A stretch of DNA of 64,000 nt from Candidatus Nomurabacteria bacterium (GTDB taxonomy: Bacteria; Patescibacteriota; Minisyncoccia; Phycocordibacterales; UBA918). The stretch covers positions 493,634 through 557,633 of the forward strand of contig CP060227.1 of the NCBI GenBank assembly GCA_023898525.1, given 5' to 3'. The notes beneath the pieces were generated by a model that saw only the letters and a list, made by a program, of their open reading frames with translations, was not told the DNA's origin and did not search any database. Each line of letters begins with the position of its first letter. Position 1 is the first letter of the stretch. Shown in pieces: positions 21,405 to 37,233 of this stretch. The translations under genes were made by a program, and so were the position numbers.

Positions 21405-21416
21405 CTCAATAAAAGT

Positions 21417-24218: not shown

Positions 24219-24247
24219 AGACCTCTATATAACCTAATAATTAGAAA

Positions 24248-25390
24248 TTACACAAACATTTTCTGGAGAAGGCCTCTTTTCCAAGTCTCTGCTTTCTCGA
24301 TCTGCTTTGACTTAAATTCAATTAGTTCGTCAACAGATTTTAGGAAATTGCTAATTTCAAGCTGCTCATCCTTTGAAGTTGGCACTGTAACTTTAATTTC
24401 TTTAAGGTGCTTAAACTTTAGATTCCAAGTATCTGAAGTAAGACCCTGCGAATAACGGTAGAAATCAAACACCACTCTCGGTATCTTGAATAAATAGCCA
24501 AAAAAATTAGGATCGCCAGTCTTAGGAGCGACAACTGTATATGCTGGACTCACAATTCCTTCAAAGGCAGACACACCGGATGCCCCTTGCCACATCCTCA
24601 TTGTGTTATATGCAATATCATTTTTGCGGACTACTTTGTAATTTGATTTGTTACCACTAGAATTATTTTTCTTAACTGAATCATCGTATTTAGTTACGCC
24701 GTTTTTCATTGTGATCGAAAGCAAATCATAATTTTTATTACCCGCTCTTTCAGTTCTTTCTTCTATGATTTTACCAAGTCTTACTGTTTGCCAATCAGGA
24801 AAATTCTTTCCATTTTTATCTTTAAAACGTACTTCCTGTGTGAAGATTTTTAGCATAACTCCCTGCTTAAATTCTTCAAGTTTCTCCCTCTGGTATTTCA
24901 TTTTTTCAATAAGTGAATCGGCATTATTAAGAAAAACTTGAATCTTTTTTTGTTCACCTACAGAGGGTAGGAAGACCTTTATTTTTCCAATGGTACTTCT
25001 TGATAAACTTGGTACGCCAGATGCCTCGTTGTACTTCTTCCAATAGATATTCTGAAAAAGTCTATAAACGAATTTGGGGGTGACTTCTTTGAAGTCACTA
25101 GTATAAAAGAGAGTATCAACAGTCCAAAAACGACCGCTAAAATAAACTGGCTTATCAATAGTACCCTTGCGACCAATGAACACTGACTCACCATCATGAA
25201 GAGCTTCATCAACATAAGTCATAACCCCACCGGTACCAAAAACTGGCACATTACCTGCTTTGAGATGTTTATAATCTCTACCACTACATACTGTGAGTAT
25301 TTGAGCAATTCGTTTTTCTTGCCATGAGTCAGAAAATTGTGAAAATCGCAGTTCGGGCACTTTTTTCTGTTTTGTAGAAGATTCAGACAT
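24248..25390 (-). CDS. hsdS: Type I R-M specificity subunit (two target-recognition domains)
   Basis: 380 aa. Its TRD1 is homologous to the N-terminus of the second hsdS at 52674..53843. Confidence 0.8.
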   Translation of the reverse strand: MSESSTKQKKVPELRFSQFSDSWQEKRIAQILTVCSGRDYKHLKAGNVPVFGTGGVMTYVDEALHDGESVFIGRKGTIDKPVYFSGRFWTVDTLFYTSDFKEVTPKFVYRLFQNIYWKKYNEASGVPSLSRSTIGKIKVFLPSVGEQKKIQVFLNNADSLIEKMKYQREKLEEFKQGVMLKIFTQEVRFKDKNGKNFPDWQTVRLGKIIEERTERAGNKNYDLLSITMKNGVTKYDDSVKKNNSSGNKSNYKVVRKNDIAYNTMRMWQGASGVSAFEGIVSPAYTVVAPKTGDPNFFGYLFKIPRVVFDFYRYSQGLTSDTWNLKFKHLKEIKVTVPTSKDEQLEISNFLKSVDELIEFKSKQIEKAETWKRGLLQKMFV

Positions 25391-25392
25391 GA

Positions 25393-26961
25393 TTAAAACG
25401 GTATTTTTATTCCAAGTTCTTTACACGTTTCACTTATGACTTTCTCTAACTTAGTTTCGTTTATTTTCAAGTTCTTAAGCTCTGTTGCGACGGCATCCAC
25501 ATTAATTGAAACCTCCTCTTCGAATGTGTCTACATAGCGAGGAATGTTTAAGTTGAAGTCATTTTCTCTAATTTCTTCTAATGAGGCATTGTGTGAGTAT
25601 TTATCAATCTCCTTTCGGTGACGGTAGGTATCAAAAATTTTTTCAATATGTTCATCATCCAAGAAGTTTTGATTTTTACCCTTACGAGAATCTCTTGAAG
25701 CTTCAATAAAGAGAATCGTATCGTCTTCTTTTCTACACTTCTTAAATATGAGAATCGTTGCTGGAATGCCAGTACCATAGAAAAGATTTGCTGGTAGTCC
25801 GATAACAGCATCGAGATAATTGAGTTTTTCAATAATGTACTTACGAATATGACCTTCGGCTCCCGAGCGAAATAGTGCACCGTGTGGCAAAACAACAGTC
25901 ATCGTACCGTTATCAGATAGATGATGGAGCATGTGAGTAACAAACGCGTAGTCCGCAGCTCCTTTTGGGGCAAGTCTTCCGTATTGAGAAAATCGATCGT
26001 CTGCAGCAAGGGTCGGGTCAGTATCACCCTTCCACTTTGCCCCAAAAGGAGGATTGGCCACTACTGCTTCGGCCCTAAGATCTGGAAGTTTATCGTCCGT
26101 GAGAGTATTGCCGTTCTCAATATCAAATTTTGAATAGTGTACTCCATGCAAGATCATGTTCATGCGAGCAAGGTTATACGTAGTTGTGTTGTACTCCTGT
26201 CCATAGTAATGAGCAATTTCAGCATATTCTCCAAGGCGCAGAAGAAGTGAGCCAGAACCACACGTAGGGTCATAAACTGAGCGAAGTTTTTTCTTACCAT
26301 CAGTCACAATCATTGCCATGAGTCGTGAAACTTGAGCAGGAGTATAGAACTCACCCGCTTTCTTCCCAGCCCCCGCCGCAAACTGAGAAATGAGATACTC
26401 ATACGCATCACCCAGCACGTCGCTCTTTGCGTCTTCCAATCTAAAATCAATCTTTGAGAGATGTGAGAGAATCGCAACTACTCTCTCGTTTTTGATCTTT
26501 TCTGATGACCCGAGTCTTACTGAGGCAAGGTCTACATCTGCAAACAGACCTTTGAAGTCATCTTCGCTATCAGTACCAGAAGAAGTCTGCTCAATTGAGT
26601 TAAGTACTCCCTTAAGGTCTTCGAGTATGAACTTGTCGTCACCTCGTTCACCGTTGCCTTTCTTAACAACTTCCGCAAAAAGTTGATTTGGCAACAGGAA
26701 GAACCCAAGTTTTTCGAGTGAGTGTGTTTTGACCGCTTCAATGTACTCTTTATCTTTCTTTATATCTAAACCAGCAAAAGTGCGCTTGTCAGCTTTCAAA
26801 AGTTCCTCGTTAGCATATTTCTCAAGCTTTTCAGAAAGATATTTATAGAAAATGAAGCCAAGAATGTAATTCCTGTACTCATCAGCATTCATGCTACTTC
26901 TTAGCGTATCTGCCACCGCCCACAGTTGTTTCTCTAGAAGTCTTTTTTGTTCGTCTGACAT
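25393..26961 (-). CDS. hsdM: Type I R-M N6-adenine DNA methyltransferase subunit
   Basis: The NPPFG motif (VVANPPFGAKWKG) and an AdoMet motif in its N-terminal half. Confidence 0.9.
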   Translation of the reverse strand: MSDEQKRLLEKQLWAVADTLRSSMNADEYRNYILGFIFYKYLSEKLEKYANEELLKADKRTFAGLDIKKDKEYIEAVKTHSLEKLGFFLLPNQLFAEVVKKGNGERGDDKFILEDLKGVLNSIEQTSSGTDSEDDFKGLFADVDLASVRLGSSEKIKNERVVAILSHLSKIDFRLEDAKSDVLGDAYEYLISQFAAGAGKKAGEFYTPAQVSRLMAMIVTDGKKKLRSVYDPTCGSGSLLLRLGEYAEIAHYYGQEYNTTTYNLARMNMILHGVHYSKFDIENGNTLTDDKLPDLRAEAVVANPPFGAKWKGDTDPTLAADDRFSQYGRLAPKGAADYAFVTHMLHHLSDNGTMTVVLPHGALFRSGAEGHIRKYIIEKLNYLDAVIGLPANLFYGTGIPATILIFKKCRKEDDTILFIEASRDSRKGKNQNFLDDEHIEKIFDTYRHRKEIDKYSHNASLEEIRENDFNLNIPRYVDTFEEEVSINVDAVATELKNLKINETKLEKVISETCKELGIKIPF

Positions 26962-26968
26962 AAGCGGT

Positions 26969-27181
26969 TTATTTTAAAAGCTGATTAATACTTACTCCTA
27001 AAGCGTTGGCAATTTTTTCTACTGTATGAACCCTAGGGTCCGGTGTTATACCACGTTCGATCTTCGAAATCGTGTGGTAATCAAGACCAGTATCTCTCAC
27101 TAAATCGCTCTTTGAGCGACCTGATTTTTTCAATAACTCTTTAATATTTGCTCCAATTTTTGAATCAAGCTTCTCGTTCAT
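26969..27181 (-). CDS. Small XRE-family HTH protein
   Basis: LKKSGRSKSDLVRDTGLDYHTISKIERG. The start is taken at MNEKLDSK. Confidence 0.55.
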   Translation of the reverse strand: MNEKLDSKIGANIKELLKKSGRSKSDLVRDTGLDYHTISKIERGITPDPRVHTVEKIANALGVSINQLLK

Positions 27182-27257
27182 GTAAAAGTTTTGCTTAGCA
27201 TAATTATACCAATAGTGAGAGTAGTAAATTCGCATTGATGTGAACAAGAAAGTCATA

Positions 27258-28655
27258 TTATTTGCCTAAACTTATAGTTTTGTTTGCCAGCAGAAGTCTG
27301 GTTTTCAGACAGGATAATAGCTCTCGTTTTTCATGAGCTTGCCCTTCCCTCAGAATGTACTTAGCGTAGTTTCGTACCTCAATATCTTTCACTTTCACCT
27401 TCGTCTCTTTCTCACCAAGTAATCCAGCTTGAAACTTTTTATGTCGTTCAATCTCATCTTTAATTTTTTTGCGCATTCCGATTTCATCAAACGCTATCTT
27501 GTCCATCAGTCCAGCTAGTTGCTCGATCAAATCTTCTTCGTTTATGTACCCACATGTACAGTTTTTATCGTTATGCTTCGTGCACCCGTAATACACGTAC
27601 CGGTGTACGTTTCCGTTCTTTTGAGTTTTGTATTTCTCATCAGCAGTGATACCTGAGCCACATAGACCGCAACTCAGTAACTTGGTGAAGGCAAACTCTT
27701 TTGTCTGCCATCCGTCTGACCTGCTGTTTTGTACTTTGATCTTTTCCTGCACCTGATCGAAGAGCGCTTTGCTAATGATTGGTTCATGTATGCCCTTATA
27801 CCACTCACCACTGCCTTTCGGATATTCGAACGTTCCATAGTAGAAATGGTTTCGGAGAATCATATATAGATTGCCGAGGTATATCGGTTTGCCTGTTCTT
27901 GTCGTGAACTTCACTTCGTCACGAAGCCAGAAGTAAAGTTGTCTACCTGTTAGGTTCTCGTACGCGATCTTCTCAAACATCTTCTTTACAATCGGTGCTC
28001 TCTTGGGGTCTATGTCCTTGTGACACTTTTTGTCAGTGCGATTACTATTCAAATATCCCGTCGGTGCAATACATGGATAAAGACCCATCTCACACCGTGC
28101 TCGCATACCTCGCTTTACGTTCTGAACTTTGTTGTCATTTTCTAGTTTGGCTTGTGATCCAAGAATCATCAGTAGAAACTTTTCATTTGGGTTGTTGGTG
28201 AACTTCTGGCCGTACGTTCGTATCTCGTGCAGTGTTCCCGAGTCCATGAGATCCACTATTCGTCCGAGATCTCCTGCATTCCTTGAAATTCGATCAGGTG
28301 CCCATGTCAGTATGGCGTTGAACTTACCGCTATGGATATCTGCTACAAGCTCGTTGAACACTGGTCTCGTGCCAGCTTCTTTAGCGGAATGTGACTCCTT
28401 CCTGATTTCAGCCACCTCCAGATTATCTCGCTCCGCCATCTGCAGCATTTCTTTGATCTGAGAGTCGATAGAAAGCACTTGCATCTCCTCAGACTCCGTC
28501 GACTTACGTGCGTACAAGCAGTATTTTAGTGTTACTGGCGCTACTATTTTGCTCGACACGAACCCCTCTGGTGCTTCTGTTCTGCTCATTACCAACACTA
28601 ATGACGCAACCCCTCTAGGAAGTCTAGAGGGGTTGGTAGTTGGTAAGTTGATCAC
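27258..28655 (-). CDS. Large serine recombinase, paralog 1
   Basis: The catalytic-domain YARKSTESEE (nucleophile Ser), LSIDSQ, ILTWAPDRISRNAGDLG, and a C-terminal recombinase domain with a Cys-rich zinc ribbon. Confidence 0.85.
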   Translation of the reverse strand: MINLPTTNPSRLPRGVASLVLVMSRTEAPEGFVSSKIVAPVTLKYCLYARKSTESEEMQVLSIDSQIKEMLQMAERDNLEVAEIRKESHSAKEAGTRPVFNELVADIHSGKFNAILTWAPDRISRNAGDLGRIVDLMDSGTLHEIRTYGQKFTNNPNEKFLLMILGSQAKLENDNKVQNVKRGMRARCEMGLYPCIAPTGYLNSNRTDKKCHKDIDPKRAPIVKKMFEKIAYENLTGRQLYFWLRDEVKFTTRTGKPIYLGNLYMILRNHFYYGTFEYPKGSGEWYKGIHEPIISKALFDQVQEKIKVQNSRSDGWQTKEFAFTKLLSCGLCGSGITADEKYKTQKNGNVHRYVYYGCTKHNDKNCTCGYINEEDLIEQLAGLMDKIAFDEIGMRKKIKDEIERHKKFQAGLLGEKETKVKVKDIEVRNYAKYILREGQAHEKRELLSCLKTRLLLANKTISLGK

Positions 28656-29200
28656 TGAAAATCCTTCGCGACACCAGTCACATTCATACGGTAGTTCAAC
28701 ATTTCCTTGCTAATACCGTATTTTCTAGTCGCCTGAACATCCGTGAGTTTTTGTTTCTTTATATAAATACAAGCTTCTCGTGGAAGAAGTAGACAACCAG
28801 ACAACCACCCCGCTTCATCTTCTTCATCCTGATTGTACGAAGCATACAGCAACCCATCGATAACATAATTCTTTCCGCCCTCATGCCCCAAAATCAAATG
28901 AGACAGTTCATGAGCCAAGTTACTAGCCTGTCTTGCTTTCGAATGTGTCGGATTTAAAACGATCACCGCAAGATCATTCGACCTTATCGTCATAGCAGAC
29001 CAGCTGTCGGGATCATCTTCTGTCAAAGTCTTGCAACATTCTTTACTCACACCATTAATGTCTTCTGGCAACCAAATCCTAATGCCATGCAGCTCTGCCA
29101 GTACCCACATGTCTAGCGGGGAATAGGCCTGATGTCCTTGTCTCTTCCTTATGTTAAGCGCGGTTTTCTCCGCCCATGCTTTGAAACCACGTTTATACAT
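28652..29200 (-). CDS. ImmA/IrrE-family HExxH metallopeptidase
   Basis: HELSHLILGHEG. It lies directly downstream of an XRE HTH gene, matching the ImmR/ImmA or CapH/CapP pairing. Confidence 0.75.
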   Translation of the reverse strand: MYKRGFKAWAEKTALNIRKRQGHQAYSPLDMWVLAELHGIRIWLPEDINGVSKECCKTLTEDDPDSWSAMTIRSNDLAVIVLNPTHSKARQASNLAHELSHLILGHEGGKNYVIDGLLYASYNQDEEDEAGWLSGCLLLPREACIYIKKQKLTDVQATRKYGISKEMLNYRMNVTGVAKDFQ

Positions 29201-29209
29201 ACCGGGACC

Positions 29210-29584
29210 TTATTCACTCCCAATAGGCTGGAGTTTCGCCATCTCTTTTTGGGCAGCAATAATTACTTCTGCTAGAGCTTTAGCAGTAGTAGGTTTAACT
29301 TCTTTGTTTTTTCTAAAGTGGATTGCTGCCATTGGCGCTTCGTGCTTGGTCGCCTCACGAGTTTCGCCCTGCAGAAAAGCTCCTGCGTCAATCTCAAGCC
29401 ACGCACAGACTTTTTGGAAAGTATCTATGTCGGCCATATATCCTCGTTCGATACGTGACAAGGTCGCCGGACTAATCCCAATGTCCTTGGCCACAACACG
29501 AACACCCCGCCCGGCTCTCTTGGCGAAAACTTTTTCGCCAAGTTTTTCAAACCTGCGGGAGGTGTCTTTATTTGATTGTTTCAT
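29210..29584 (-). CDS. XRE-family HTH repressor-like protein
   Basis: AKDIGISPATLSRIERG. Confidence 0.75.
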   Translation of the reverse strand: MKQSNKDTSRRFEKLGEKVFAKRAGRGVRVVAKDIGISPATLSRIERGYMADIDTFQKVCAWLEIDAGAFLQGETREATKHEAPMAAIHFRKNKEVKPTTAKALAEVIIAAQKEMAKLQPIGSE

Positions 29585-29600
29585 ACATAATACAAAAATG

Positions 29601-29630
29601 TTTGACAGATAAGACGCTCATGCCTTATAC
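29601..29630 (+). promoter_or_regulatory. Sigma-70-like promoter TTGACA-17-TTATACT reading rightwards into the Ubl operon
   Basis: -35 TTGACA at 29601-29606 and -10 TTATAC(T) at 29624-29630. It lies in the divergent intergenic region next to the XRE gene start. Confidence 0.5.
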
Positions 29631-29720
29631 TGTGTCTTACATGTGAAACAGTACCGCGATTCCCTCTTGGGGTCAAGCGCACTGGCCACATGATTTAACC
29701 AATAAGCTTCTATTTATTAT

Positions 29721-29981
29721 ATGGAAACTTCAACAAAAGAGCACGCACAGCGTGGTCATAAAACAAAGCTCGTAACCGTCACCGTGGATGGTGTAGAGCA
29801 CAAAATTAAACGAGGAAAGTACACGGGTAAGGAGCTCAAGCAAGCATTTGGTATCGAGCCGAACCGTGAGCTGCTTGAAATCAAAGGTAAGAAGTTGGTA
29901 CCGATTGGTGATTGCGACGAGACCAATGTCTCAGGACATGAGGTGTTCGTGACACACGTATGTACCGGAACATCATCGTAA
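29721..29981 (+). CDS. Ubiquitin-like (beta-grasp, ThiS/MoaD-like) protein, 86 aa
   Basis: VTVTVDGVEHKIKRGKYTGKELKQAFGIEPNRELLEIKGKKLVPIGDCDETNVSGHEVFV resembles ThiS/MoaD. There is no C-terminal GG. It is the first gene of the Ubl-E2-JAB-E1 operon. Confidence 0.5.
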   Translation: METSTKEHAQRGHKTKLVTVTVDGVEHKIKRGKYTGKELKQAFGIEPNRELLEIKGKKLVPIGDCDETNVSGHEVFVTHVCTGTSS

Positions 29982-30319
29982 GCCGTATGGAGTTTGATCA
30001 AGAACAACTAAACGAGTTGGGTCACCAGTGTGAGCGAGTCGAAGTACTCGCTGACGGTCCTCATCATTTTATACTGCTCACCAATTTGGAATTGATTTCC
30101 GATGGGAAGGTAGTGGTGATGGATGCGTTACTGTGCCCATTCGCTCACACTGGTTATGCAACTCGTCTGTTCTTGGCAGAACCTTTGAGTCACAAACAGA
30201 AGAACTGGACAATCCATCAGCTTCTAGGGAGAAATTGGCATACATGGTCATGGAAAGGTGTCGAGGCCAACCAACGTTTGTCACAGATATTAGCGAGCCA
30301 TTTAACCGCTCTCATATGA
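29960..30319 (+). CDS. E2-like (UBC-fold) candidate, 119 aa
   Basis: The candidate catalytic Cys is in MDALLCPFAHTGY, and GPHHF sits in the position of an HPN-like motif. Its stop overlaps the JAB start (ATGA). The assignment is by operon position and size. Confidence 0.35.
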   Translation: MYRNIIVSRMEFDQEQLNELGHQCERVEVLADGPHHFILLTNLELISDGKVVVMDALLCPFAHTGYATRLFLAEPLSHKQKNWTIHQLLGRNWHTWSWKGVEANQRLSQILASHLTALI

Positions 30320-30843
30320 AGGTCGTCTACAAAATAAATGCTGATCTAATAGCAACAATTAAGGAAGACCTATCGCGGTTTCACCCGTATGCGTTTGAGC
30401 GTATAGGGTTCATCTCTAATTCTTGTGCGTACACGAGTGATGACACGCTCACCATTTATGCGCTAGGTTATACGCCGATACCCGATGATTGCTACATCCC
30501 TGACTACACGGTAGGAGTGAGGTTCGGTAAAGATGCAATTCAAAAGGCACTTGAACTCGCCTTCAATGAAGGAGGTCAGAACGTATCAGTCTTTCATGTC
30601 CACGAACACATGGGGTCAAATGTGCCTTGGTTCAGCCAGACTGATCTATTGAGTGCTGACGAATTTGTCCCAGACATATTCAACACCGCACCCGCAATGC
30701 CTCATGGCATTCTGGTACTCAACGAACGACATGCTTCAGGAAAAGTTTGGACTACCAAAGCAGAATCGCAGCCAATAGAAACCGTTATTAGTGTTGGTTC
30801 GCCAACAAAATACTCTAATTACCATGAACGAACGTTATTCTAG
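30316..30843 (+). CDS. JAB/MPN (JAMM) family metallopeptidase, deubiquitinase-like
   Basis: HVHEHMGSNVPWFSQTD approximates the JAMM HxHx7-8SxxD motif. Confidence 0.55.
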   Translation: MKVVYKINADLIATIKEDLSRFHPYAFERIGFISNSCAYTSDDTLTIYALGYTPIPDDCYIPDYTVGVRFGKDAIQKALELAFNEGGQNVSVFHVHEHMGSNVPWFSQTDLLSADEFVPDIFNTAPAMPHGILVLNERHASGKVWTTKAESQPIETVISVGSPTKYSNYHERTLF

Positions 30844-31651
30844 ACAAAGCTTCTTAGGTGAGGACAGCGACTCACTTTTCGCCCGCTTGAACGTCGCTAT
30901 TGTTGGTCTTGGCGGCGGCGGTTCACATGTGGCACAACAACTAGTTCATTTGGGTGTGAAAAATTTCATCCTAGTTGATCACGATTCGATTGAGGAAAGC
31001 AATCTGAATCGGTTAGTTGGCGGTACAGCGGAAGATGTACGAGCAGAGAGAAATAAGGTGGATATTCTTGCTCGAGTGATACGTAGCGTCAATGAAGATG
31101 CCGATGTCTCAGTTCAATCGCAAAAATGGCAAAACGCTGCTAACCTATTGCGCGAGTGTGACTGCATATTCGGTTGCGTTGATTCGCTAGACGAGAGGCG
31201 ACAGCTCGAAAATTTTGCTCGTCGCTTTATGATCCCTTACATTGACATCGGTATTGATGTAAGTAATACAGATGGACGTACTTACATAACTGGTCAGGTT
31301 GCAAAATCGATCCCATCGAAACCTTGTCTTTGGTGCCTCAACATATTGAACGAACAAAATGTAAACAAAGAAGTGCAAGAGTACGGTGCTGCTGGGGGAC
31401 AACCTCAAGTGGTGTGGGCGAACGGTATTGTTGCGTCGGCTGCAGTGGGAATGTTTGTCGAACTGTTTACACCTTGGAACCCTGATCAAAACCAAGTGCT
31501 TTGCCTAGACTACGATGGTAATAAACACACATTGGAAGTGAGTAACCGCATGCTCTTTCCAAGTGTGCAAGAGGGTATTTGCGAGCACTACCCAAAGGAA
31601 TTAGTGGGTGACCCTTTCTTTAAAATTAATAAGATTGTGAACCATGGATGA
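30824..31651 (+). CDS. ThiF/MoeB/HesA-family E1-like activating enzyme
   Basis: RYSRQ motif, Rossmann VAIVGLGGGGSH, catalytic-cysteine region CDCIFGCVD, CxxC zinc site KPCLWC. Confidence 0.8.
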   Translation: MNERYSRQSFLGEDSDSLFARLNVAIVGLGGGGSHVAQQLVHLGVKNFILVDHDSIEESNLNRLVGGTAEDVRAERNKVDILARVIRSVNEDADVSVQSQKWQNAANLLRECDCIFGCVDSLDERRQLENFARRFMIPYIDIGIDVSNTDGRTYITGQVAKSIPSKPCLWCLNILNEQNVNKEVQEYGAAGGQPQVVWANGIVASAAVGMFVELFTPWNPDQNQVLCLDYDGNKHTLEVSNRMLFPSVQEGICEHYPKELVGDPFFKINKIVNHG

Positions 31652-31904
31652 TTTAGCATTTAAGTACCCGAGAAGAATTCTGCAAGCACTACTGGTTGGT
31701 GCGATGGTGATTGCTATTGGCTGGGGTGTTATTACTTGGAACTCGCAAAATGCGATCAATCTCTGGACTAAGGAAGTAACGTTTATTACTCAACCGATCT
31801 TTAACTACTTCACAAACAAGATGGAACGTAGGGTGGAACGAGCTATGGAGCCGGTGACGGAGCAGCTCGAAGCGTCTGGTAACTCCGCTTCGCAAGACCA
31901 GTAA
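31644..31904 (+). CDS. Small two-TM membrane protein (MDDLAFKYP...) ending the Ubl operon; paralog of 48499..48729
   Basis: It overlaps the E1 stop (ATGGATGA). It is ~45% identical over 70 aa to the small ORF at 48499..48729. Confidence 0.5.
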   Translation: MDDLAFKYPRRILQALLVGAMVIAIGWGVITWNSQNAINLWTKEVTFITQPIFNYFTNKMERRVERAMEPVTEQLEASGNSASQDQ

Positions 31905-31924
31905 ACTAAGCTAAAGTGCTGACT

Positions 31925-32140
31925 AATAGCCCTATTTGAGCTATTATGTCCGTTACAACCAAATACGGTAGACCTAACCCATTGGCAACCCCAATGGTAT
32001 GGTCGAAAATCCCAAAGCACATAAAGAACCCGTCATCAGGGCTCGTGCTTTGGGTTATAGGGGGAAACTCCTATAGGAGCTTCGGCTCTCCTGGTGGCGG
32101 GCTTTTTGTACCTCACCAATTTATAAACCCAAAGCACAAT
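31925..32140 (+). ncRNA. Conserved ~200-nt noncoding element, copy A (candidate structured RNA / regulatory leader)
   Basis: It shares TATTTGAGCTATTATGTYCGTTACAA and ACCTAACCC with 60600-60790. It has co-varying stems CCCAAAGCAC/GTGCTTTGGG (copy A) against CCGTCCAAAGT/ACTTTGGACGG (copy B), and ends ...GGGCTTTTTG. Confidence 0.45.
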
Positions 32141-32144
32141 TTAT

Positions 32145-32492
32145 ATGGAATCATTTAAACTATCGTCTTCAGAAAACGAAGACAAGAACGAGGAAGGAAG
32201 TTCATCTGTAGCGAAGGTACTTCTCAGCCTCATTATTATGGGAGCAGGAGGTTGGTTCTTCTTCGGCGGAGGACTCGAACAACAAGCAGCTAATGACCTC
32301 GACAAAATCGAAGACCAGGTCGCTGCTGATTCAGTCCGACAATACAACCTCGCTAAGCAAGGTGGTGACGCAATTGAAATCTGCGTACAAGCAGGAATGG
32401 TCACAGCTGCGTATCTCCAAGCCGAAGACCAACCAAACTACCTAAAGTGGAAAGACATCGAGAAAGCAGACTGTGCTAGAGCAGGGATGTAA
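32145..32492 (+). CDS. Small membrane-anchored protein with acidic N-terminus
   Basis: One TM (VAKVLLSLIIMGAGGWFFFGGG); no motif. Confidence 0.35.
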   Translation: MESFKLSSSENEDKNEEGSSSVAKVLLSLIIMGAGGWFFFGGGLEQQAANDLDKIEDQVAADSVRQYNLAKQGGDAIEICVQAGMVTAAYLQAEDQPNYLKWKDIEKADCARAGM

Positions 32493-32497
32493 AAAAT

Positions 32498-32527
32498 AAA
32501 CCACTGACGGGCAGTGGTTTATTTTTA
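32498..32527. terminator. Bidirectional terminator AAACCACTG-ACGG-GCAGTGGTTT flanked by A6/T5
   Basis: It lies between convergent genes. Confidence 0.65.
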
Positions 32528-32965
32528 TCTTTCCCAATCATCAGGATGACCCCCATTTTCAATGAACTCTCGATATCGTTCAAGACGAGCAATAGTTGGA
32601 ATGGAAGCAATAGTGATTGGTGGTGTCATCTCTTCCAAGCGGTACGGCGAAGTAGTCTTCTTCGGATGATAGTCATCGTGACAGTTACTCAACTGAAACT
32701 TAATCGCTGGAAAGTAGCCTTCACTGATACTACGCATAAGCTGGTTGTGCGCCAAGTCATTTACATAACTCTTGCCGTCACTGATTGCCTTATCCGCCTG
32801 TACCGCAAAATCTTCATCCTCCTTCACCCAGCGATAGTACGTCTCACGGCTCAAGCCAGCCTTCTTGCAAGCAAAGCTCACGTTACCCGATTCACACAGA
32901 GACTGGAGTACTTTCTCTTGCTGTTTCAGAATCCGCTCCTGTATCCGCTTCTCGCGCTTGTCCAT
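32525..32965 (-). CDS. Phage terminase small subunit-like HTH protein (degenerate copy)
   Basis: FACKKAGLSRETYYRWVKEDEDF resembles the TerS HTH, and the gene at 62675..63070 is homologous in layout. Confidence 0.45.
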   Translation of the reverse strand: MDKREKRIQERILKQQEKVLQSLCESGNVSFACKKAGLSRETYYRWVKEDEDFAVQADKAISDGKSYVNDLAHNQLMRSISEGYFPAIKFQLSNCHDDYHPKKTTSPYRLEEMTPPITIASIPTIARLERYREFIENGGHPDDWER

Positions 32966-33707
32966 TACCAGTAAGTTTTAGCCAGCGAACAACGATAGTC
33001 TCGCAGTATTCTGGGTCCATCTCGACCGTAATACACTTACGCTTCGTATGCTCGCAGGCAATCAAGGTTGAGCCACTGCCACCAAACGGGTCATAGACGG
33101 TGTCACCAACCTTCGTGCTGTTAAGAATCAGTCTGCGGAGTAATCCGACTGGTTTCATCGTCGGGTGGAGCTTGCTTTGCGACGGTTTCGGGTAGAACGC
33201 AACTGACTTGTCTTTGCCACGCTTGAAGTCGTGCGTACCTTTCCAACCGTAGAGAATGAGTTCGTGTTGCGGTAGGTAGTCGAGTCGTCCCACGATTGCT
33301 CGATCCTTCACCCAGACGATAAGTTGGGCAATTTTCATGCCTGCCTCAAGACAGGCCTGACGGAGAGCGAAGATCATCTTGTCGGAGTTGAAGATGTAGA
33401 TGCTGTTTTTCTTGGACAGCTTTGAGAGTGCTGGAGAAAGCCAGCTCTTAGTGAATTCAACGTACTGTTGGTCGGACATAAATCCGTCATTGGAGATGTC
33501 TTTATCCTTGGCAATCTTGCCAATGCCACGCTTGCTTTCAGCGTAATCGACACCGTACGGCGGGTCAGTTAGAAGGAGGTCGATGTTCCCGTAGACAGAG
33601 AGGTCTACCTTGGAGGAATCACCGCAGATGAGAACGTGCTCACCAAGACAGATGATGTCCCCTGTCTTAATTGATCTTGGTAGCTTTGGTACCGGTGAAT
33701 TTTTCAT
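32892..33707 (-). CDS. DNA methyltransferase (N6-adenine/N4-cytosine, DPPY family)
   Basis: DIICLGEHVLICGDS and LLLTDPPYGVDYA. Confidence 0.8.
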   Translation of the reverse strand: MKNSPVPKLPRSIKTGDIICLGEHVLICGDSSKVDLSVYGNIDLLLTDPPYGVDYAESKRGIGKIAKDKDISNDGFMSDQQYVEFTKSWLSPALSKLSKKNSIYIFNSDKMIFALRQACLEAGMKIAQLIVWVKDRAIVGRLDYLPQHELILYGWKGTHDFKRGKDKSVAFYPKPSQSKLHPTMKPVGLLRRLILNSTKVGDTVYDPFGGSGSTLIACEHTKRKCITVEMDPEYCETIVVRWLKLTGNGQAREADTGADSETARESTPVSV

Positions 33708-34941
33708 AGCGGTTGATGATTACCTGAACAAAGACGGGGTTGAGCTCGACCAGAAACGCATTGCGCTTCATTTGCTCACACGCAAGGAGGGTTGAACCTG
33801 AGCCACCACAGAGATCGAGCACGTTATCGCCGATCTTGGTGCAACGGTTGAGTGGTCGCTCATGCAAAGACAGAGGTTTCTGCGTTGGGTGATCGTAGGA
33901 TTGTCCTGCGTCACGCTTAGCGAGCCAGATATCAATCATGTCAGTGACATCATCGATGGTAGCGTTACCGATGCCGATATCTTTATTCAGAATCTCGGCG
34001 AGTTTGGTGTGCTTTTTAGAGAGGTATGGCTTACCAACCGTGCCGTAAAGGGCTGGTTCGTAGATTTTCGAGAACGCTACTTGTGGCGTTGGGTTGATAC
34101 CGTTCTTGATCCAGAGGGCGGTGCGTTTGTATGCGATACCTACCTCAACGAAGAGGTTTTGAAGCATGCCGACATACGCTGAATCGCAGTACCAGATGTG
34201 GTGCGAGTCCTTAGCTGAAACGTCCACCGCATTTTGCATCAGTGTGCGTACGAAGGTGCGGTACTCAGCGTCTGTCTTCTTATCATCAACGACACCACCG
34301 TAGCTTTTCTTGCCCCCGATGCCTTTGTCGTACGAGAGTCCGATGTTGTATGGAATATCTACATACGACATGTCGATTGTGGTCTCACCAACAAGCTTCT
34401 TCACTGTCTCGGGGTTCGTGCTGTCACCACAGATAAGATAGTGGGTACCGAGCTTGAAGAAGTCACCAGACTTAATGTCAGTCGTCTCGGCTTTCTTGAG
34501 CTCTTTCTCAGGATTAAACTCATCGTCATCAATCTCCAGCACATCGTCCCAGATGTCAGAGAGGTCTCCGTCATCGAAGCCGATGTCCAAGAGGAACTCA
34601 GTGTCAAAATCCTTCAACAGTTCGTAGTCCCACGAGCCTGTGTTCTTATTGGAGCGTAGGAGATACTCTTCAAATTCCTTCTTGGTAAGGGTGCGGTTTG
34701 GTACTCGCACGTCAATTTCTTCTTGCCCGCGACCGAGTAGTTGCATCACCTTCAATCTGGCGTGTCCTGCCACGATAGTGTTATCAGTGTTGATCGCAGG
34801 AATCTCCGCTAGAGAGAACTTGGTAATGCTCGCTTCAAGGTCTTTACGCTGTTTGTCCGACAAGGTGCGAGGGTTCTTGTCGTACGGCACGAGATCATCG
34901 ACTTTGCGTGTCTCTGTGTGCCAAGTAATTTTATTACTCAT
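33667..34941 (-). CDS. ParB-like nuclease domain fused to a DNA methyltransferase
   Basis: N-terminal ParB/Srx fold (DLVPYDKNPRTLSD), then HYLICGDS and DIPYNIG methyltransferase motifs. Confidence 0.8.
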   Translation of the reverse strand: MSNKITWHTETRKVDDLVPYDKNPRTLSDKQRKDLEASITKFSLAEIPAINTDNTIVAGHARLKVMQLLGRGQEEIDVRVPNRTLTKKEFEEYLLRSNKNTGSWDYELLKDFDTEFLLDIGFDDGDLSDIWDDVLEIDDDEFNPEKELKKAETTDIKSGDFFKLGTHYLICGDSTNPETVKKLVGETTIDMSYVDIPYNIGLSYDKGIGGKKSYGGVVDDKKTDAEYRTFVRTLMQNAVDVSAKDSHHIWYCDSAYVGMLQNLFVEVGIAYKRTALWIKNGINPTPQVAFSKIYEPALYGTVGKPYLSKKHTKLAEILNKDIGIGNATIDDVTDMIDIWLAKRDAGQSYDHPTQKPLSLHERPLNRCTKIGDNVLDLCGGSGSTLLACEQMKRNAFLVELNPVFVQVIINRYEKFTGTKATKIN

Positions 34942-35009
34942 AGTAGATTGCGAGGGTGTTTTATATTAATGGTCCCTCTACCATCTACTGCTGAGATTTC
35001 AGCGACTAG

Positions 35010-35726
35010 TTAGTCATTGCGATATATTTCGTCTTCAAAGTCCATTGCACCAGAATGTCGCAGTTCACCACTGCCTCGTAACTCCTTTTCAGGAAGAAGC
35101 GTGAACTTGGGCTGGTAGCCAGTCTCGTTGGTATATCGTTCAAATGGTTCTTCGTTGATACCAAACGCCTGACGTAGACCCATTGATAAGTCACTCTTTC
35201 GTTTTTCTACTGCGTTTGGTGAAGTAACACCGCAAACATTCATCAAATGCTGTTTCGTGGCAGGTATGTTTGGCTCACGTCCAAGCAAGGCAGACATCAT
35301 CCGAAGCAAAGCCCAACGGCGATCTGGTTTTTTCCATTCAGTGTTAGCCTGAGCGAAGCCGAGATCCTCATGTGAATATTTTCCGATGATTGTGTCTCCG
35401 TATTTCACCTCTACATCTTCGTTGTTTTTGAAGCTGATACTGAGTTCCTGCCACTTAGCGTTTTCTGGTAATTTAACCTTCGCCTCAGTGAACAAGACCT
35501 CTTTCTTGGTTTTAGCCTTCATTGAACTTGCTGACACGGGAGCTGATTCCGTTGATATCTCAGTCTCTGTCTCAGCGCCGTATACTTCCTGATAAATAAC
35601 TTGAAGCTCAGCAATGAAGCGGAGTGTTGGTTTTATTGGTTCTATTGCTTGTCGCACCTGATCCTCAAGAGCCTTGCGTTGCAGGAGAGCCTGACGGAGC
35701 GAAGTAAGTGTGTTTTTTGTGTACAT
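35010..35726 (-). CDS. Hypothetical protein (238 aa)
   Basis: No motif recognised. Confidence 0.35.
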   Translation of the reverse strand: MYTKNTLTSLRQALLQRKALEDQVRQAIEPIKPTLRFIAELQVIYQEVYGAETETEISTESAPVSASSMKAKTKKEVLFTEAKVKLPENAKWQELSISFKNNEDVEVKYGDTIIGKYSHEDLGFAQANTEWKKPDRRWALLRMMSALLGREPNIPATKQHLMNVCGVTSPNAVEKRKSDLSMGLRQAFGINEEPFERYTNETGYQPKFTLLPEKELRGSGELRHSGAMDFEDEIYRND

Positions 35727-35883
35727 ATACTCTAATTATACAACCGACTTTTACAGCGATAATATCCTTGTTTTAAGCCATATCCGTATTTTCAAACCGT
35801 TCTGAAAATGCTCTTAAAATAGCTGTTTGGGTGTCAGATTTGTAACATGTGGCTTTACTGAGCCATCGGCATATAATCACTTT

Positions 35884-37233
35884 ATGAATTATCAAATCGC
35901 CGCTCCGTCTGAGAAGCCCATCGTGCTCAAATACTGTATCTACGCTCGCAAATCCATGGAGCAAGAGGAACGCCAAGCGTTGTCTATCGACTCTCAGCTC
36001 AAGGAGATGAAGGAAATCGTTGACCGAGAGAAGCTCGATGTCGTAGCAATAAAAACCGAGTCGCACTCAGCCAAGCACTCAGGACAACGTGAGGTCTTCA
36101 TGGAAATGGTCACAGAACTCAAAGCTGGCAAGTACAACGCCATCCTTACCTGGAACCCAGACCGCCTCAGTCGTAATGCTGGTGACCTCGGCTTGCTGGT
36201 AGACATGATGGACAATGGCAAGTTGTTGGAGATTCGTACCTTCAATCAAGTCTTCTCCAACTCACCAAACGAAAAGTTCCTCCTCATGATTCTCTGCTCA
36301 CAAGCCAAGCTGGAGAACGATCAGAAAGGTATCAACGTGAAGAGGGGTCTGCGAGCTGCAGCTGCTAAAGGTCTCTGGCCCTGTGCCTATCCGCCACTCG
36401 GATACAGCAAGTCACGCATGAAGGGTGAAGAAGGAGTTGTGCATTTAAATAAGAAAGACGCTCCATTCATCAAGGAAGCGTTTCGGAAAGTAGCGTACGA
36501 GGGCTATTCAACCTACGCCATTGAACGCTGGCTCAAGGAAACTGGCATGACCACTTCCTCTGGCAAACCCCTGAATTACAGCCTCGTTCAAGCCATGCTC
36601 CACAACTCTTTCTACTACGGCTATTTTGAATTTCCGAAGAAGAGTGGACAGATATACAAAGGTGCACATAAGCCCGCCATTACCAAGAAGCTTTTCAATG
36701 ATGCACAGGAAGCAATTGCTCAGAAGGAGCGGAAGAAACGCTACCGTAAATCTAAGACTGCGCCGTTTGGTTTTCTTCACTTGATACGCTGTGGTACTTG
36801 TAGCTCGGGTATCACTGCCGAAGAGAAGTACAAAACTCTTAAAAGCACTGGTGAAGAAGCTGTCTACCGTTACTACGTCTGTTGCCGAAATCGTAACCGT
36901 GACTGTCGTGAGAAATATATTAGCGAGACTCAATTACTGGAAGAACTGTATAAAATTCTTGATGTCGTCGAGCTTGATGAAATTGGTATGCGAGAAATGC
37001 TCGAGTCTGAGATTGAGAAGTGGTACAAGGTGCGGGCATTTGTTCAAGGCAAACCCGTTGAAGAACGCACTGATGAGCAGAAGGAATACGACCTCCGTAA
37101 ATACGCCAAGATTATCTTTGAAGAGGGTCGTAACGATGAACAGCGTGAGATCTTGAAGTATGTAAAAGGCAGGCTGATTTTGAGGAACAAGCGAATATAT
37201 CTCGATACCGTTCCAGAAGAGGCAAAATCCTAA
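35884..37233 (+). CDS. Large serine recombinase, paralog 2
   Basis: YARKSMEQEE, LSIDSQ, ILTWNPDRLSRNAGDLG; ~60-70% identical to the other three copies. Confidence 0.85.
   Translation: MNYQIAAPSEKPIVLKYCIYARKSMEQEERQALSIDSQLKEMKEIVDREKLDVVAIKTESHSAKHSGQREVFMEMVTELKAGKYNAILTWNPDRLSRNAGDLGLLVDMMDNGKLLEIRTFNQVFSNSPNEKFLLMILCSQAKLENDQKGINVKRGLRAAAAKGLWPCAYPPLGYSKSRMKGEEGVVHLNKKDAPFIKEAFRKVAYEGYSTYAIERWLKETGMTTSSGKPLNYSLVQAMLHNSFYYGYFEFPKKSGQIYKGAHKPAITKKLFNDAQEAIAQKERKKRYRKSKTAPFGFLHLIRCGTCSSGITAEEKYKTLKSTGEEAVYRYYVCCRNRNRDCREKYISETQLLEELYKILDVVELDEIGMREMLESEIEKWYKVRAFVQGKPVEERTDEQKEYDLRKYAKIIFEEGRNDEQREILKYVKGRLILRNKRIYLDTVPEEAKS

What the first reader, a model, noticed from the sequence alone, without database searches (positions are those of the whole stretch)
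28652..31904. Bil/6E-like ubiquitin-like conjugation operon (Ubl, E2-like, JAB, E1, small TM protein) under a divergent XRE + ImmA/IrrE module
There are four translationally coupled genes: an 86-aa beta-grasp protein, a 119-aa Cys-containing candidate E2, a JAMM-motif peptidase, and a ThiF-family E1 with RYSRQ, catalytic-cysteine and CxxC motifs. This reproduces the gene order BilA-BilB-BilC-BilD of the recently described anti-phage ubiquitin-like systems. The proteins are unusually small, and the Ubl lacks a terminal Gly-Gly, which suggests JAB processing. A fifth overlapping gene encodes a 2-TM mini-protein not known from Bil operons. A strong TTGACA-17-TTATACT promoter faces the operon from an intergenic region shared with an XRE repressor followed by an ImmA/IrrE HExxH peptidase. 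This is the CapH/CapP or ImmR/ImmA logic for DNA-damage or phage-triggered derepression.
Basis: partly seen in the sequence, partly recalled or inferred. Interest (0 to 1): 0.8.

Follow-up and report, generated by a model that had tools for sequence, protein, structure and literature searches.

The report
Unfused Bub-like ubiquitin-like conjugation operon
This is a real four-gene bacterial ubiquitin-like protein-tagging operon under a repressor/protease switch, but it is a previously uncatalogued, unfused relative of the cysteine-free "Bub" (6E) pathways that lacks their BubE gene, not a Bil system.

Summary
The genes are present as described, and the same Ubl–E2-like–JAB–E1 order recurs in all 54 related loci examined, from at least six phyla. 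The window comes from a Candidatus Nomurabacteria (CPR) genome.

Every core protein is closest to a Type I Bub (6E) part:
- E1: best solved-structure match by sequence is Citrobacter BubCD (E 3e-23).
- Ubl: Pfam Multi_ubiq family.

The E2-like protein has an invariant Ser88, while Cys50 is kept in only 65% of family representatives. The E1 crossover loop has an invariant Tyr187 and no conserved Cys. This matches the oxyester (Tyr/Ser) mechanism published for Bub.

The operon fails two defining Bub features. All four genes are separate, and no DUF6527/BubE gene is present in the window or in any related locus. The family (about 300 clusters at 50% identity) is not in the published Bub catalogue.

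A divergent HTH + M78 peptidase pair accompanies 27 of 42 informative loci, which supports CapH/CapP-like control. The fifth gene encodes a protein with one membrane segment and occurs only in the closest relative.

Verdict: a new variant of a known kind, of moderate interest.

The parts
27258..28655 (-). Large serine recombinase (465 aa). It overlaps the end of the ImmA gene by 4 nt. This is context (a mobile island), not a conserved part of the system.
   Evidence: Pfam Resolvase 3e-20, Recombinase 8e-13, Zn_ribbon_recom 2e-9. No recombinase was seen next to the HTH+M78 pair in the related loci whose gene tables were inspected.
28652..29200 (-). ImmA/IrrE-type M78 zinc metallopeptidase (182 aa, HELSH motif). 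Proposed signal-activated protease that cleaves the XRE repressor (CapP-like).
   Evidence: Pfam Peptidase_M78 6.3e-18. PADLOC capP 3.5e-9 and RmrA 8e-10. Homologues lie divergently upstream of the operon in 27 of 42 distinct loci that have at least 2 kb of upstream sequence.
29210..29584 (-). XRE-family HTH protein (124 aa). Proposed repressor of the divergent operon promoter (CapH-like).
   Evidence: Pfam HTH_3 4e-7, HTH_31 6e-5. Homologous HTH genes lie upstream in 12 loci, and other HTH families in further loci.
29585..29720 (.). Divergent regulatory region. It holds the promoter-like site TTGACA (29602-29607)-18-TATACT (29626-29631). Inverted-repeat arms at 29599-29615 and 29634-29650 bracket the -10 hexamer and overlap the -35 hexamer; they are the candidate operator. 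A conserved leader follows, about 29651-29720.
   Evidence: The promoter site matches 11 of 12 positions and is the best in the stretch scanned. Inverted repeats. The region is 90% identical to that of L010, although the flanking proteins are only about 60% identical. The same 20-nt arms are present in L010.
29721..29981 (+). Ubl precursor (86 aa), a single Multi_ubiq-type domain. Gly83 is invariant (codon 29967-29969) and is followed by the tail Thr-Ser-Ser, presumed to be removed by the JAB peptidase.
   Evidence: Pfam Multi_ubiq E 0.0016 for the window protein, below the curated cut-off. Three of 6 orthologues match, best 2e-5. Longer Ubls from the same operon type score 1e-25. Gly at position -4 in 118 of 120 homologues; tails GGSS 52, GAAS 46. 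At least 499 homologous clusters.
29987..30319 (+). E2-like protein (110 aa) with a BubB-like minimal UBC fold. Ser88 is invariant (codon 30248-30250) and is the proposed oxyester-forming nucleophile. Cys50 is not conserved.
30316..30843 (+). Standalone JAB/JAMM metallopeptidase (175 aa). Motif residues are Glu28, His96-x-His98, Ser107-x-x-Asp110. Proposed to mature the Ubl precursor and possibly to remove conjugates.
30824..31651 (+). E1, a single ThiF-type adenylation domain (275 aa). It has a Gly-rich nucleotide loop from residue 28, a likely zinc site (Cys168, Cys171, Cys253, His255), and an invariant crossover-loop Tyr187 (codon 31382-31384).
   Evidence: Pfam ThiF 3.8e-32. Best solved relative by sequence is Citrobacter BubCD at 3.2e-23, against about 1e-9 for ThiF, MoeB, UBA1 and UBA5. 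NCBIfam ThiF and MoeB scores are far below their cut-offs. Tyr is present in 51 of 51 sequences (45 distinct loops), with no conserved loop Cys. Residue positions.
31644..31904 (+). Small membrane protein (86 aa, one hydrophobic segment at about residues 12-32) that overlaps the E1 stop by 8 nt. It is a lineage-specific add-on, not a family component.
   Evidence: Hydropathy and overlap. A homologue exists only in L010. No conserved downstream gene in 47 other distinct operons. No Pfam, NCBIfam or PADLOC match.

Best explanation
The locus is an inducible ubiquitin-like protein-conjugation operon. It belongs to an uncatalogued sister group of the Bub (6E) pathways in which all four activities are separate proteins and the BubE (DUF6527) protease is absent.

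Proposed mechanism:
1. (Inferred) The XRE protein represses the TTGACA-18-TATACT promoter through the inverted repeat that brackets it. A stress or phage cue, by analogy DNA damage or single-stranded DNA, activates the M78 peptidase to cleave the repressor, as in CapH/CapP and ImmR/ImmA.
2. (Inferred from the conserved tail and from BubC activity) The JAB peptidase trims the 86-aa Ubl precursor after the invariant Gly83, removing Thr-Ser-Ser.
3. (Fold and motifs shown; chemistry inferred) A homodimeric single-domain E1 adenylates Gly83 and takes the Ubl onto the invariant crossover-loop Tyr187 as an oxyester.
4. (Fold and conservation shown; chemistry inferred) The Ubl passes to the invariant Ser88 of the minimal UBC-fold E2-like protein and then to lysines of unknown targets.
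5. With no BubE, the JAB is the only candidate for removing conjugates.

The biological role is probably anti-phage or stress defence. The operon sits in a recombinase-flanked island next to a type I restriction-modification system. The membrane mini-protein is an accessory found only in the window and its closest relative (L010).
For: - Gene order Ubl-E2-JAB-E1 is conserved in all 54 related loci, from Pseudomonadota, Acidobacteriota, Patescibacteria, Spirochaetota, Bacteroidota and Chloroflexota.
- E1: best solved relative by sequence is BubCD, E 3e-23.
- Ubl: Multi_ubiq family.
- Ser88 is kept in 149 of 150 representatives against 97 of 150 for Cys50. Tyr187 is kept in 51 of 51 with no conserved loop Cys. 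This matches the published Bub Tyr/Ser oxyester mechanism (bioRxiv 10.1101/2024.11.21.623953).
- Gly at position -4 with a G[GA][SA]S tail occurs in 118 of 120 Ubls. In rare fused forms the E2 domain begins right after this motif, just as BubCD cleaves BubAB after its conserved Gly.
- The M78 peptidase is upstream in 27 of 42 loci, and the window protein matches the PADLOC capP model at 3.5e-9.
- The intergenic DNA is 90% conserved against about 60% for the proteins.
- Island context: HsdR/S/M, two serine recombinases and phage-type methyltransferases.
Against: - No biochemistry exists for this family.
- The equivalence of Ser88 and BubB Ser333 rests on loop position and conservation. Profile alignments around the serine are ambiguous by up to 3 residues, and no residue-level superposition was available.
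- The residues that accompany the Bub serine (His+Asp in Type I, Lys+His in Type II) are not obviously reproduced. Here the nearly invariant residues are Tyr57, Arg60, Asn73, Trp74, Trp84 and His105.
- The window Ubl scores below the Pfam cut-off and its fold was not modelled.
- Even canonical Bub operons have not been shown to protect against phage (PMC13373217).
- In the window the XRE-ImmA genes are co-oriented with a recombinase gene and overlap it, so they could primarily serve the mobile element.
- The M78 protein is short (182 aa against a 242-position capP profile).
Confidence: 0.7

Rival explanations
1. It is a Bil (BilABCD) system. Ubl, a Cys-E2, a JAB deubiquitinase and a Cys-E1 work through thioesters.
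Against: - Bil E1s are multidomain IAD-AAD-CYS enzymes. This E1 is a 275-aa single domain whose closest relative is BubCD.
- The crossover loop has an invariant Tyr and no conserved Cys.
- Cys50 is replaced in 35% of representatives and lies at the end of strand 3, not in the loop before the last helix.
- The fold matches to BubB and BubC are much stronger than those to other E2s or to BilC.
Confidence: 0.04
2. It is a sulfur-carrier or biosynthetic module of the ThiS/MoaD/CysO/QbsE type. A JAMM peptidase trims a small beta-grasp protein, a ThiF-like enzyme adenylates it to make a thiocarboxylate, and no protein is tagged.
For: The single-domain ThiF-like E1 has RYSRQ and CxxC motifs. The Ubl has a short C-terminal tail after Gly and a JAMM peptidase next to it, as in the CysO/Mec+ and QbsE/QbsD systems (own knowledge).
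Against: - A BubB-like UBC-fold protein with an invariant Ser is present in every locus.
- NCBIfam ThiF, MoeB and MoeZ scores are far below their cut-offs.
- No rhodanese domain and no sulfur or cofactor genes are nearby.
- The Ubl is of the Multi_ubiq type, and some orthologues carry 2-3 tandem domains.
- The operon has defence-type regulators and lies in mobile islands.
Confidence: 0.04
3. The XRE + ImmA pair is the immunity and excision switch of the recombinase-bearing island, like immR-immA-int of ICEBs1. It is not a dedicated regulator of the Ubl operon, which only happens to sit next to it.
For: XRE, ImmA and the serine recombinase are co-oriented, and the ImmA and recombinase genes overlap by 4 nt. 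A second serine recombinase lies at 35827-37233, and phage-type genes lie between the two.
Against: - Homologous M78 peptidases with an HTH gene lie divergently upstream of the same operon in 27 of 42 distinct loci, in unrelated contexts and with no recombinase seen beside them in the gene tables inspected.
- The operon's only strong promoter lies in the shared intergenic region inside a conserved inverted repeat.
- The two roles are not mutually exclusive.
Confidence: 0.2
4. The operon does conjugate a Ubl, but it serves a general stress or DNA-damage response, or mobile-element biology, rather than phage defence.
For: No Bub operon has yet been shown to protect against phage. The regulators are of the DNA-damage-responsive kind. 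Several orthologous operons sit next to nuclease and helicase genes.
Against: The operon lies next to a type I restriction-modification system and in a mobile island. It shares regulator types with CBASS and other defence systems. Bil, a related kind of system, is anti-phage.
Confidence: 0.3

Closest known systems
Type I Bub (bacterial ubiquitination-like; formerly 6E.1/DUF6527) operons: BubAB + BubCD + BubE (Ye, Gong, Chambers & Corbett, bioRxiv 10.1101/2024.11.21.623953; PDB 9EA4, 9EAE, 9EAV)
   Same: - The order of activities is the same: Ubl, E2, JAB, E1.
- The E1 is a single ThiF-type domain with an invariant crossover-loop Tyr and no Cys.
- The E2 is a minimal UBC fold with an invariant Ser.
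- The JAB is closest to the BubC domain.
- The Ubl is of the Multi_ubiq type with a conserved Gly at the processing or activation site.
- There is frequent divergent HTH + M78 (CapH/CapP-like) control.
- The operons lie in mobile or defence islands.
   Different: - All four activities are separate genes. Rare relatives fuse Ubl-E2, or both pairs.
- There is no DUF6527/BubE gene in the window or in any of the related loci.
- The E2 and JAB are invisible to Pfam Prok-E2_E and Prok-JAB, and to profile searches against BubB and BubCD sequences.
- The Ser is not in a Ser-x-His motif.
- The Ubl is made with a conserved 3-residue tail, G[GA][SA]S, instead of being fused to the E2 or ending at Gly.
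- The E2 is about 20 residues shorter.
- The family is absent from the published table of 544 operons.
Type II Bub (6E.2): BubA + BubBD (E2-E1 fusion) + BubE
   Same: It also has a standalone Ubl, Tyr/Ser chemistry, and CapH/CapP or CapW regulators.
   Different: Type II fuses E2 to E1, usually lacks a JAB, and always has BubE. Here E2 and E1 are separate, a JAB is always present, and BubE is absent.
Type I/II Bil (BilABCD) anti-phage systems
   Same: Both have four separate genes in the order Ubl, E2, JAB, E1, a JAB that matures or deconjugates the Ubl, and no E3.
   Different: Bil E1 is a multidomain IAD-AAD-CYS enzyme and Bil E2 uses a catalytic Cys (thioesters). The Ubls are ISG15-like rather than Multi_ubiq. 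The fold matches of the window proteins favour Bub parts.
CapH/CapP (CBASS-associated HTH repressor + M78 peptidase) and ImmR/ImmA
   Same: A divergent HTH repressor gene is followed by an M78 HExxH peptidase gene upstream of a defence-type operon. The window peptidase matches the PADLOC capP model at 3.5e-9.
   Different: The window peptidase is short (182 aa) and covers only positions 18-119 of the 242-position capP profile. The XRE protein matches no capH model. In the window the pair is also co-transcribed with a serine recombinase, as in immR-immA-int.

Membership tests
Bub (6E/DUF6527) operons | Ubl with Multi_ubiq-type beta-grasp domain(s) and a conserved Gly at the activated C-terminus | tested here: met
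   - Window protein: Multi_ubiq E 0.0016, below the curated cut-off. Three of 6 orthologues match, best 2e-5.
- Same-operon Ubls in L055, P0370 and P0398 score 1e-25 to 2e-27.
- Gly at position -4 in 118 of 120 homologues.
- The fold itself was not modelled.
Bub (6E/DUF6527) operons | E2 with a diverged UBC fold that lacks the C-terminal helix pair, and an invariant Ser instead of a catalytic Cys | tested here: met
- Ser88 in 149 of 150 representatives, Cys50 in 97 of 150.
- The exact equivalence of Ser88 and Ser333 is inferred, not superposed.
- There is no Pfam Prok-E2_E match.
Bub (6E/DUF6527) operons | E1 with a single adenylation domain, an invariant crossover-loop Tyr and no catalytic Cys | tested here: met
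   BubCD is the best solved relative by sequence, 3e-23. The window Tyr lies within 2 residues of Tyr370 in a gapped loop alignment. Tyr is present in 51 of 51 sequences, with no conserved loop Cys.
Bub (6E/DUF6527) operons | A BubE (DUF6527/PF20137) serine protease gene in the operon ('all Bub operons possess bubE') | tested here: not met
   - No Pfam DUF6527 match on any of the 12 window ORFs tested between 19.6 and 37.2 kb or on the neighbour genes tested.
- No conserved extra gene in 48 distinct operons.
- tblastn with a bona fide DUF6527 protein (L056; Pfam 8e-16) finds nothing in the 64-kb window or in the loci.
- A copy elsewhere in the genome was not excluded.
Bub (6E/DUF6527) operons | Fusion architecture: JAB-E1 (Type I, with or without Ubl-E2) or E2-E1 (Type II) | tested here: not met
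   The four genes are separate ORFs in different frames in the window and in all 54 related loci. Of the 150 best E2 representatives, only P0370 and P0398 are Ubl-E2 fusions. L058 also has a JAB-E1 fusion.
Bub (6E/DUF6527) operons | Residues accompanying the E2 Ser: His+Asp (Type I, Ser-x-His) or Lys+His (Type II) | tested here: inconclusive
   The window motif is W-H-T-W-S88-W-K. Position +2 varies (Q/N/K/R). His85 is kept in 49 of 150, His105 in 138 of 150, and Asp/Glu46 in 131 of 150. Their spatial arrangement was not examined.
Bil (Type I/II BilABCD) | [quoted passage not shown] | tested here: not met
   The E1 is 275 aa with one ThiF domain and has no conserved loop Cys.
Bil (Type I/II BilABCD) | E2 with a catalytic cysteine | tested here: not met
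   Cys50 is not conserved (65%) and lies outside the loop before the last helix. Ser88 is the invariant residue.
Bil (Type I/II BilABCD) | Separate Ubl, E2, JAB and E1 genes in that order | tested here: met
CapH/CapP-type regulators | An HTH repressor gene followed by an M78 HExxH metallopeptidase gene, divergent from the regulated operon | tested here: met
   Pfam HTH_3 and Peptidase_M78. PADLOC capP 3.5e-9. The pair is conserved in 27 of 42 loci.
CapH/CapP-type regulators | Full-length CapP architecture (peptidase plus C-terminal regulatory domain) and cleavage of the repressor on DNA damage | not testable with these tools
   The window protein covers only capP profile positions 18-119 of 242, and at 182 aa it is shorter than the median of about 261 aa for its homologues. 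Its activity needs experiment.
ThiF/MoeB sulfur-carrier adenylyltransferases | Score above the curated equivalog cut-off, and MoaD/ThiS partners | tested here: not met
   TIGR02356 scores 76 bits against a cut-off of 275, and MoeB models score 52-58 bits against cut-offs of 266-449. The partner is a Multi_ubiq Ubl together with an E2-like protein.

The most novel reading that the evidence does not exclude
This is a distinct third architecture of cysteine-free (Tyr/Ser oxyester) ubiquitin-like conjugation, in effect a 'Type III Bub'. All enzymes are standalone. The Ubl is made as a precursor with a conserved G[GA][SA]S tail. BubE is dispensable, because the standalone JAB both matures the Ubl and removes conjugates. 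The family was missed by catalogues seeded on DUF6527, and it reaches the reduced genomes of CPR/Patescibacteria, where it has acquired a membrane mini-protein partner.
Probability: 0.5. Interest if true: 0.62.

Novelty: new variant of a known kind. Interest (0 to 1): 0.55.

Why it matters
Bub pathways are the only known ubiquitin-like cascades that work without catalytic cysteines, and their biological role is still unknown.

- A widespread sister family with the four activities on separate small proteins and no BubE offers a simpler system for biochemistry. There are about 300 clusters at 50% identity for the E2, at least 499 clusters at 90% identity for the Ubl, at least six phyla, and several cultivable hosts and plasmids.
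- It tests which Bub features are essential: the fusions, BubE, and the Ser-x-His motif.
- It shows that catalogues seeded on DUF6527 miss this family of bacterial ubiquitin-like systems.
- It gives Pfam-invisible E2 and JAB families a functional assignment.
- It places such a system in CPR bacteria.

Tried and rejected
- The same was true of the JAB by sequence.
- Foldseek against PDB gave no match at E <= 0.001 for the E2 model, although BubB had the best TM-score.
- hhalign of a 121-sequence Ubl profile against Citrobacter BubA and against L056 BubA gave no signal. The beta-grasp assignment therefore rests on Pfam Multi_ubiq.
- hhalign of the E2 profile against BubB sequences aligns the N-terminal half confidently. 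It is ambiguous by up to 3 residues around the serine.
- Megablast of the locus against plasmids and phages found no match.
- Rfam found nothing on the regulatory region.
- The search for related loci with the broad alignment A5 failed because no stretch was conserved enough. The narrower alignment A1 was used instead, so the 43 genome loci are a lower bound.
- tblastn with a DUF6527 protein found nothing in the window or in the loci.
- Readings rejected: Bil membership, a ThiF/MoeB sulfur-carrier role, Cys50 as the catalytic residue, an E1 catalytic Cys, a two-segment membrane topology for the fifth protein, and the fifth gene as a conserved component.

Full report
**1. What is in the sequence**

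On the minus strand there are three co-oriented genes:
- an XRE-type HTH gene (29210-29584; Pfam HTH_3 4e-7);
- an M78 ImmA/IrrE peptidase gene (28652-29200; Peptidase_M78 6e-18, HELSH motif; PADLOC capP 3.5e-9);
- a large serine recombinase gene (27258-28655), which overlaps the peptidase gene by 4 nt.

On the plus strand there are five genes:
- an 86-aa ORF (29721-29981);
- an E2-like ORF, whose start is best placed at ATG 29987 (110 aa), as in the public annotation and in all homologues;
- a JAMM-motif ORF starting at 30316 (175 aa);
- a ThiF-family ORF starting at 30824 (275 aa; Pfam ThiF 4e-32);
- an 86-aa ORF (31644-31904).

The junctions are a 5-nt spacer, an ATGA overlap, a 20-nt overlap and an 8-nt overlap.

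The shared intergenic region holds the best sigma-70-like site of the 4.2-kb stretch scanned, TTGACA-18-TATACT at 29602-29631, matching 11 of 12 positions. Inverted-repeat arms (29599-29615 and 29634-29650) overlap its -35 hexamer and lie just downstream of its -10 hexamer.

The window comes from a Candidatus Nomurabacteria (CPR) genome; the E2-like protein is 100% identical to H6779_02365 on a 1.09-Mb contig.

**2. The operon is a conserved unit**

- A single-sequence search with the E2-like protein returned only 15 clusters, because the word index limits sensitivity.
- An exhaustive profile search of 1.84 billion representatives returned 309 at E <= 0.001 and 231 at E <= 1e-10. Nearly all are standalone proteins of about 110 aa.
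- Profile searches found at least 180 standalone JAB clusters and at least 499 Ubl clusters.
- Eleven metagenomic loci and 43 loci from species-representative genomes were fetched. All 54 carry Ubl, E2-like, JAB and E1 in that order as separate ORFs.
- Hosts include Alpha-, Beta- and Gammaproteobacteria, Acidobacteriota, Saccharibacteria, Spirochaetota, Bacteroidota and Anaerolineaceae.
- Cultured strains among them are Noviherbaspirillum malthae, Geothrix fermentans DSM 14018, Rhizobium sp. Leaf453, Novosphingobium album and Piscinibacter koreensis.
- The family is also on plasmids of Rhizobium leguminosarum, Sphingobium herbicidovorans, Methylocystis rosea and Spirosoma linguale. NCBI annotates the Rhizobium copy as ImmA/IrrE peptidase, HTH regulator, multiubiquitin domain protein, hypothetical protein and ThiF family adenylyltransferase.

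**3. What each protein is**

*E1.* The best solved relative by sequence is Citrobacter BubCD (E 3.2e-23, 85 bits). ThiF, MoeB, UBA1 and UBA5 score about 1e-9 to 1e-8. All NCBIfam ThiF and MoeB models score far below their cut-offs.

*E2-like protein.* It has no sequence match in any library.
- An AlphaFold2 model is confident (pLDDT 91, pTM 0.83).
- Foldseek agrees on the best TM-score (0.69 to BubB), although its E-values are weak.
- hhalign links the N-terminal 46 residues to a Prok-E2_E protein from a canonical Bub operon (probability 91%, E 1e-6).
- The UBC-fold condition is met.

*Ubl.*
- The window protein matches Pfam Multi_ubiq weakly (E 0.0016, below the cut-off).
- Three of 6 orthologues match, the best at 2e-5.
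- Several homologues carry the domain in precomputed annotation.
- Longer Ubls of the same operon type score 1e-25 with two or three repeats.
Profile comparison with two BubA sequences gave nothing.

**4. Active-site chemistry**

Among 150 family representatives of the E2-like protein:

| Residue | Kept in |
|---|---|
| Ser88 | 149 of 150 |
| Trp84 | 149 of 150 |
| Tyr57 | 149 of 150 |
| His105 | 138 of 150 |
| Cys50 | 97 of 150 (replaced by Arg, Ser or Val) |

Cys50 sits at the end of strand 3. Ser88 lies in the loop between the last strand and the terminal helix.

In the E1 crossover loop, Tyr187 within E-x-x-x-Y-G-x-A-G is present in 51 of 51 sequences, which represent 45 distinct loops. 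No cysteine is conserved in the loop apart from the CxxC at its start. With Cys253 and His255, that CxxC looks like the structural zinc site. In the alignment to BubCD the window Tyr lies within two residues of Tyr370, in a gapped loop.

The Bub paper shows that BubCD Tyr370 and BubB Ser333 carry the Ubl as oxyesters. The same chemistry is therefore the best inference here.

One caveat applies. Profile alignments around the serine are ambiguous by up to three residues. The motif here is W-H-T-W-S-W-K, against W-R-W-S-R-H-S-W in Citrobacter and L-W-F-S-W-H in L056. No residue-level superposition was available.

**5. Ubl maturation**

In 118 of 120 homologues the Ubl ends with Gly at position -4, followed by a conserved tail. 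The tails are GGSS (52), GAAS (46) and others, with TSS in the window.

In rare relatives the Ubl is fused to the E2 domain, and the E2 domain begins immediately after this motif (P0370 ...HGGSA|W..., P0398 ...DGSSA|D...). BubCD cleaves BubAB just after its conserved Gly. Trimming after Gly83 by the JAB is thus the likely first step.

**6. Relation to known systems**

All four parts are nearest to Type I Bub, and the order of activities is the same. Two defining features fail.
- Published Bub operons were collected from DUF6527-containing operons, and 'all Bub operons possess bubE'.
- Every Type I entry seen in their table is a DUB+E1 fusion, and every entry seen has a DUF6527 gene.
- Here no DUF6527 gene was found. 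Evidence: Pfam on the 12 window ORFs tested and on the neighbour genes tested; no conserved additional gene in 48 distinct operons; tblastn with a bona fide DUF6527 protein.
- The fused relatives of this clade also lack it. L057 has a Ubl-E2 fusion with separate JAB and E1. L058 has both a Ubl-E2 fusion and a JAB-E1 fusion.
- None of six hosts of this family checked by name appears in the published table.
- Bil membership fails on E1 architecture and on E2 chemistry.

The family is best described as an uncatalogued sister or variant of Bub.

**7. Regulation and context**

- An M78 peptidase homologous to the window's lies divergently upstream in 27 of 42 distinct loci that have enough upstream sequence, together with an HTH gene, in unrelated neighbourhoods.
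- By comparison, 31% of Bub operons carry CapH+CapP.
- The window's intergenic region is 90% identical to that of its closest relative L010, although the flanking proteins are only about 60% identical. The 20-nt inverted-repeat arms are conserved there as well.
- This supports a repressor/operator arrangement. In the window, however, the pair is also co-transcribed with a recombinase gene, as in immR-immA-int, so it may serve both the island and the operon.
- The locus lies in an island that follows tRNA-Arg (19460-19536). The island contains a T5orf172 gene, a type I restriction-modification system (HsdR, HsdS, HsdM), two large serine recombinases, two phage-type DNA methyltransferases and a terminase-small-like HTH gene.

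**8. The fifth gene**

The 86-aa protein has one hydrophobic segment. It has a homologue only in L010, where it also overlaps the E1 stop by 8 nt. No other locus has a conserved downstream gene. It is a lineage-specific accessory of unknown role.

**9. Verdict**

The system is Bub-like rather than Bil-like. It most likely works through Tyr and Ser oxyesters rather than cysteine thioesters, and it represents an unfused variant without BubE that published catalogues do not include. It is a new variant of a known kind, of moderate interest.

Noticed in passing
window 19460-37233: The operon sits in an island that follows tRNA-Arg (19460-19536). The island contains a T5orf172/GIY-YIG-like gene (19626-20180), a complete type I restriction-modification system (HsdR 21417-24218, HsdS 24248-25390, HsdM 25393-26961) and an HTH gene (26969-27256). 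It also holds two large serine recombinases (27258-28655 and 35827-37233), a terminase-small-like HTH gene (32525-32965) and two phage-type DNA methyltransferases, one of them fused to ParB (32892-34941).
   Followed up: partly
window 29638-29720; L010 1306-1389: The leader between the promoter and the Ubl start codon is about 90% conserved with L010. It folds into a long stem-loop (ACAUGUG...CACAUGA, -22.8 kcal/mol, z -2.3). There is no Rfam match. With only two sequences, covariation cannot be judged.
   Followed up: partly
L005 2606-5634; L011 37-2425; four further loci: Six of the loci that lack the M78 peptidase carry instead a conserved protein of 531-542 aa with no Pfam domain. In L005 and L011 it lies upstream, divergent, with a small ORF of about 70 aa and an HTH gene or a sigma-70-like gene of about 200 aa. 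This may be an alternative sensor or regulator module.
   Followed up: partly
L001/L003/L004 (e.g. L004 3517-5395): Another variant of the regulator region has genes of 202-209 aa and 144 aa, both without Pfam matches, ahead of a 273-aa M78 peptidase gene. The pair recurs in 6-8 loci.
   Followed up: no
L055 5020-8804; L057 3250-6864; L058 7834-11014; L033, L040, L041, L045 downstream of the E1 gene: Several orthologous operons are followed by large nuclease or helicase genes (PD-(D/E)XK + UvrD-like, or SbcD-like). In L058 they are followed by UvrD, DarT and an ADP-ribosylglycohydrolase. These may be neighbouring defence systems or functional partners.
   Followed up: no
L003 3171-3563: One metagenomic copy of the Ubl gene is frameshifted. 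It encodes 130 aa, and its C-terminus diverges after ...KVSI, losing the Gly-tail motif. The rest of the operon is intact, so this is probably a decaying copy or an assembly error.
   Followed up: no
L056 (Mesorhizobium plasmid NZ_AP023251.1 228284-232379): This canonical Bub operon has separate Ubl and E2 genes, a JAB-E1 fusion, an inserted 494-aa 'phosphotransferase' gene and a DUF6527 gene. Its Ubl ends directly in Gly with no tail. A RES/Xre toxin-antitoxin pair lies upstream.
   Followed up: partly
L016 7687-8193: A 168-aa LRAT/NlpC-P60-like papain-fold protein (Pfam LRAT 8e-9) is encoded 24 nt downstream of the E1 gene in a Moraxellaceae locus. It could be an alternative deconjugating peptidase there.
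   Followed up: no
window 32145-32492: A 115-aa ORF downstream of the operon has an acidic N-terminus and one hydrophobic segment. It has no match in Pfam, NCBIfam or PADLOC, and no counterpart in related loci.
   Followed up: partly
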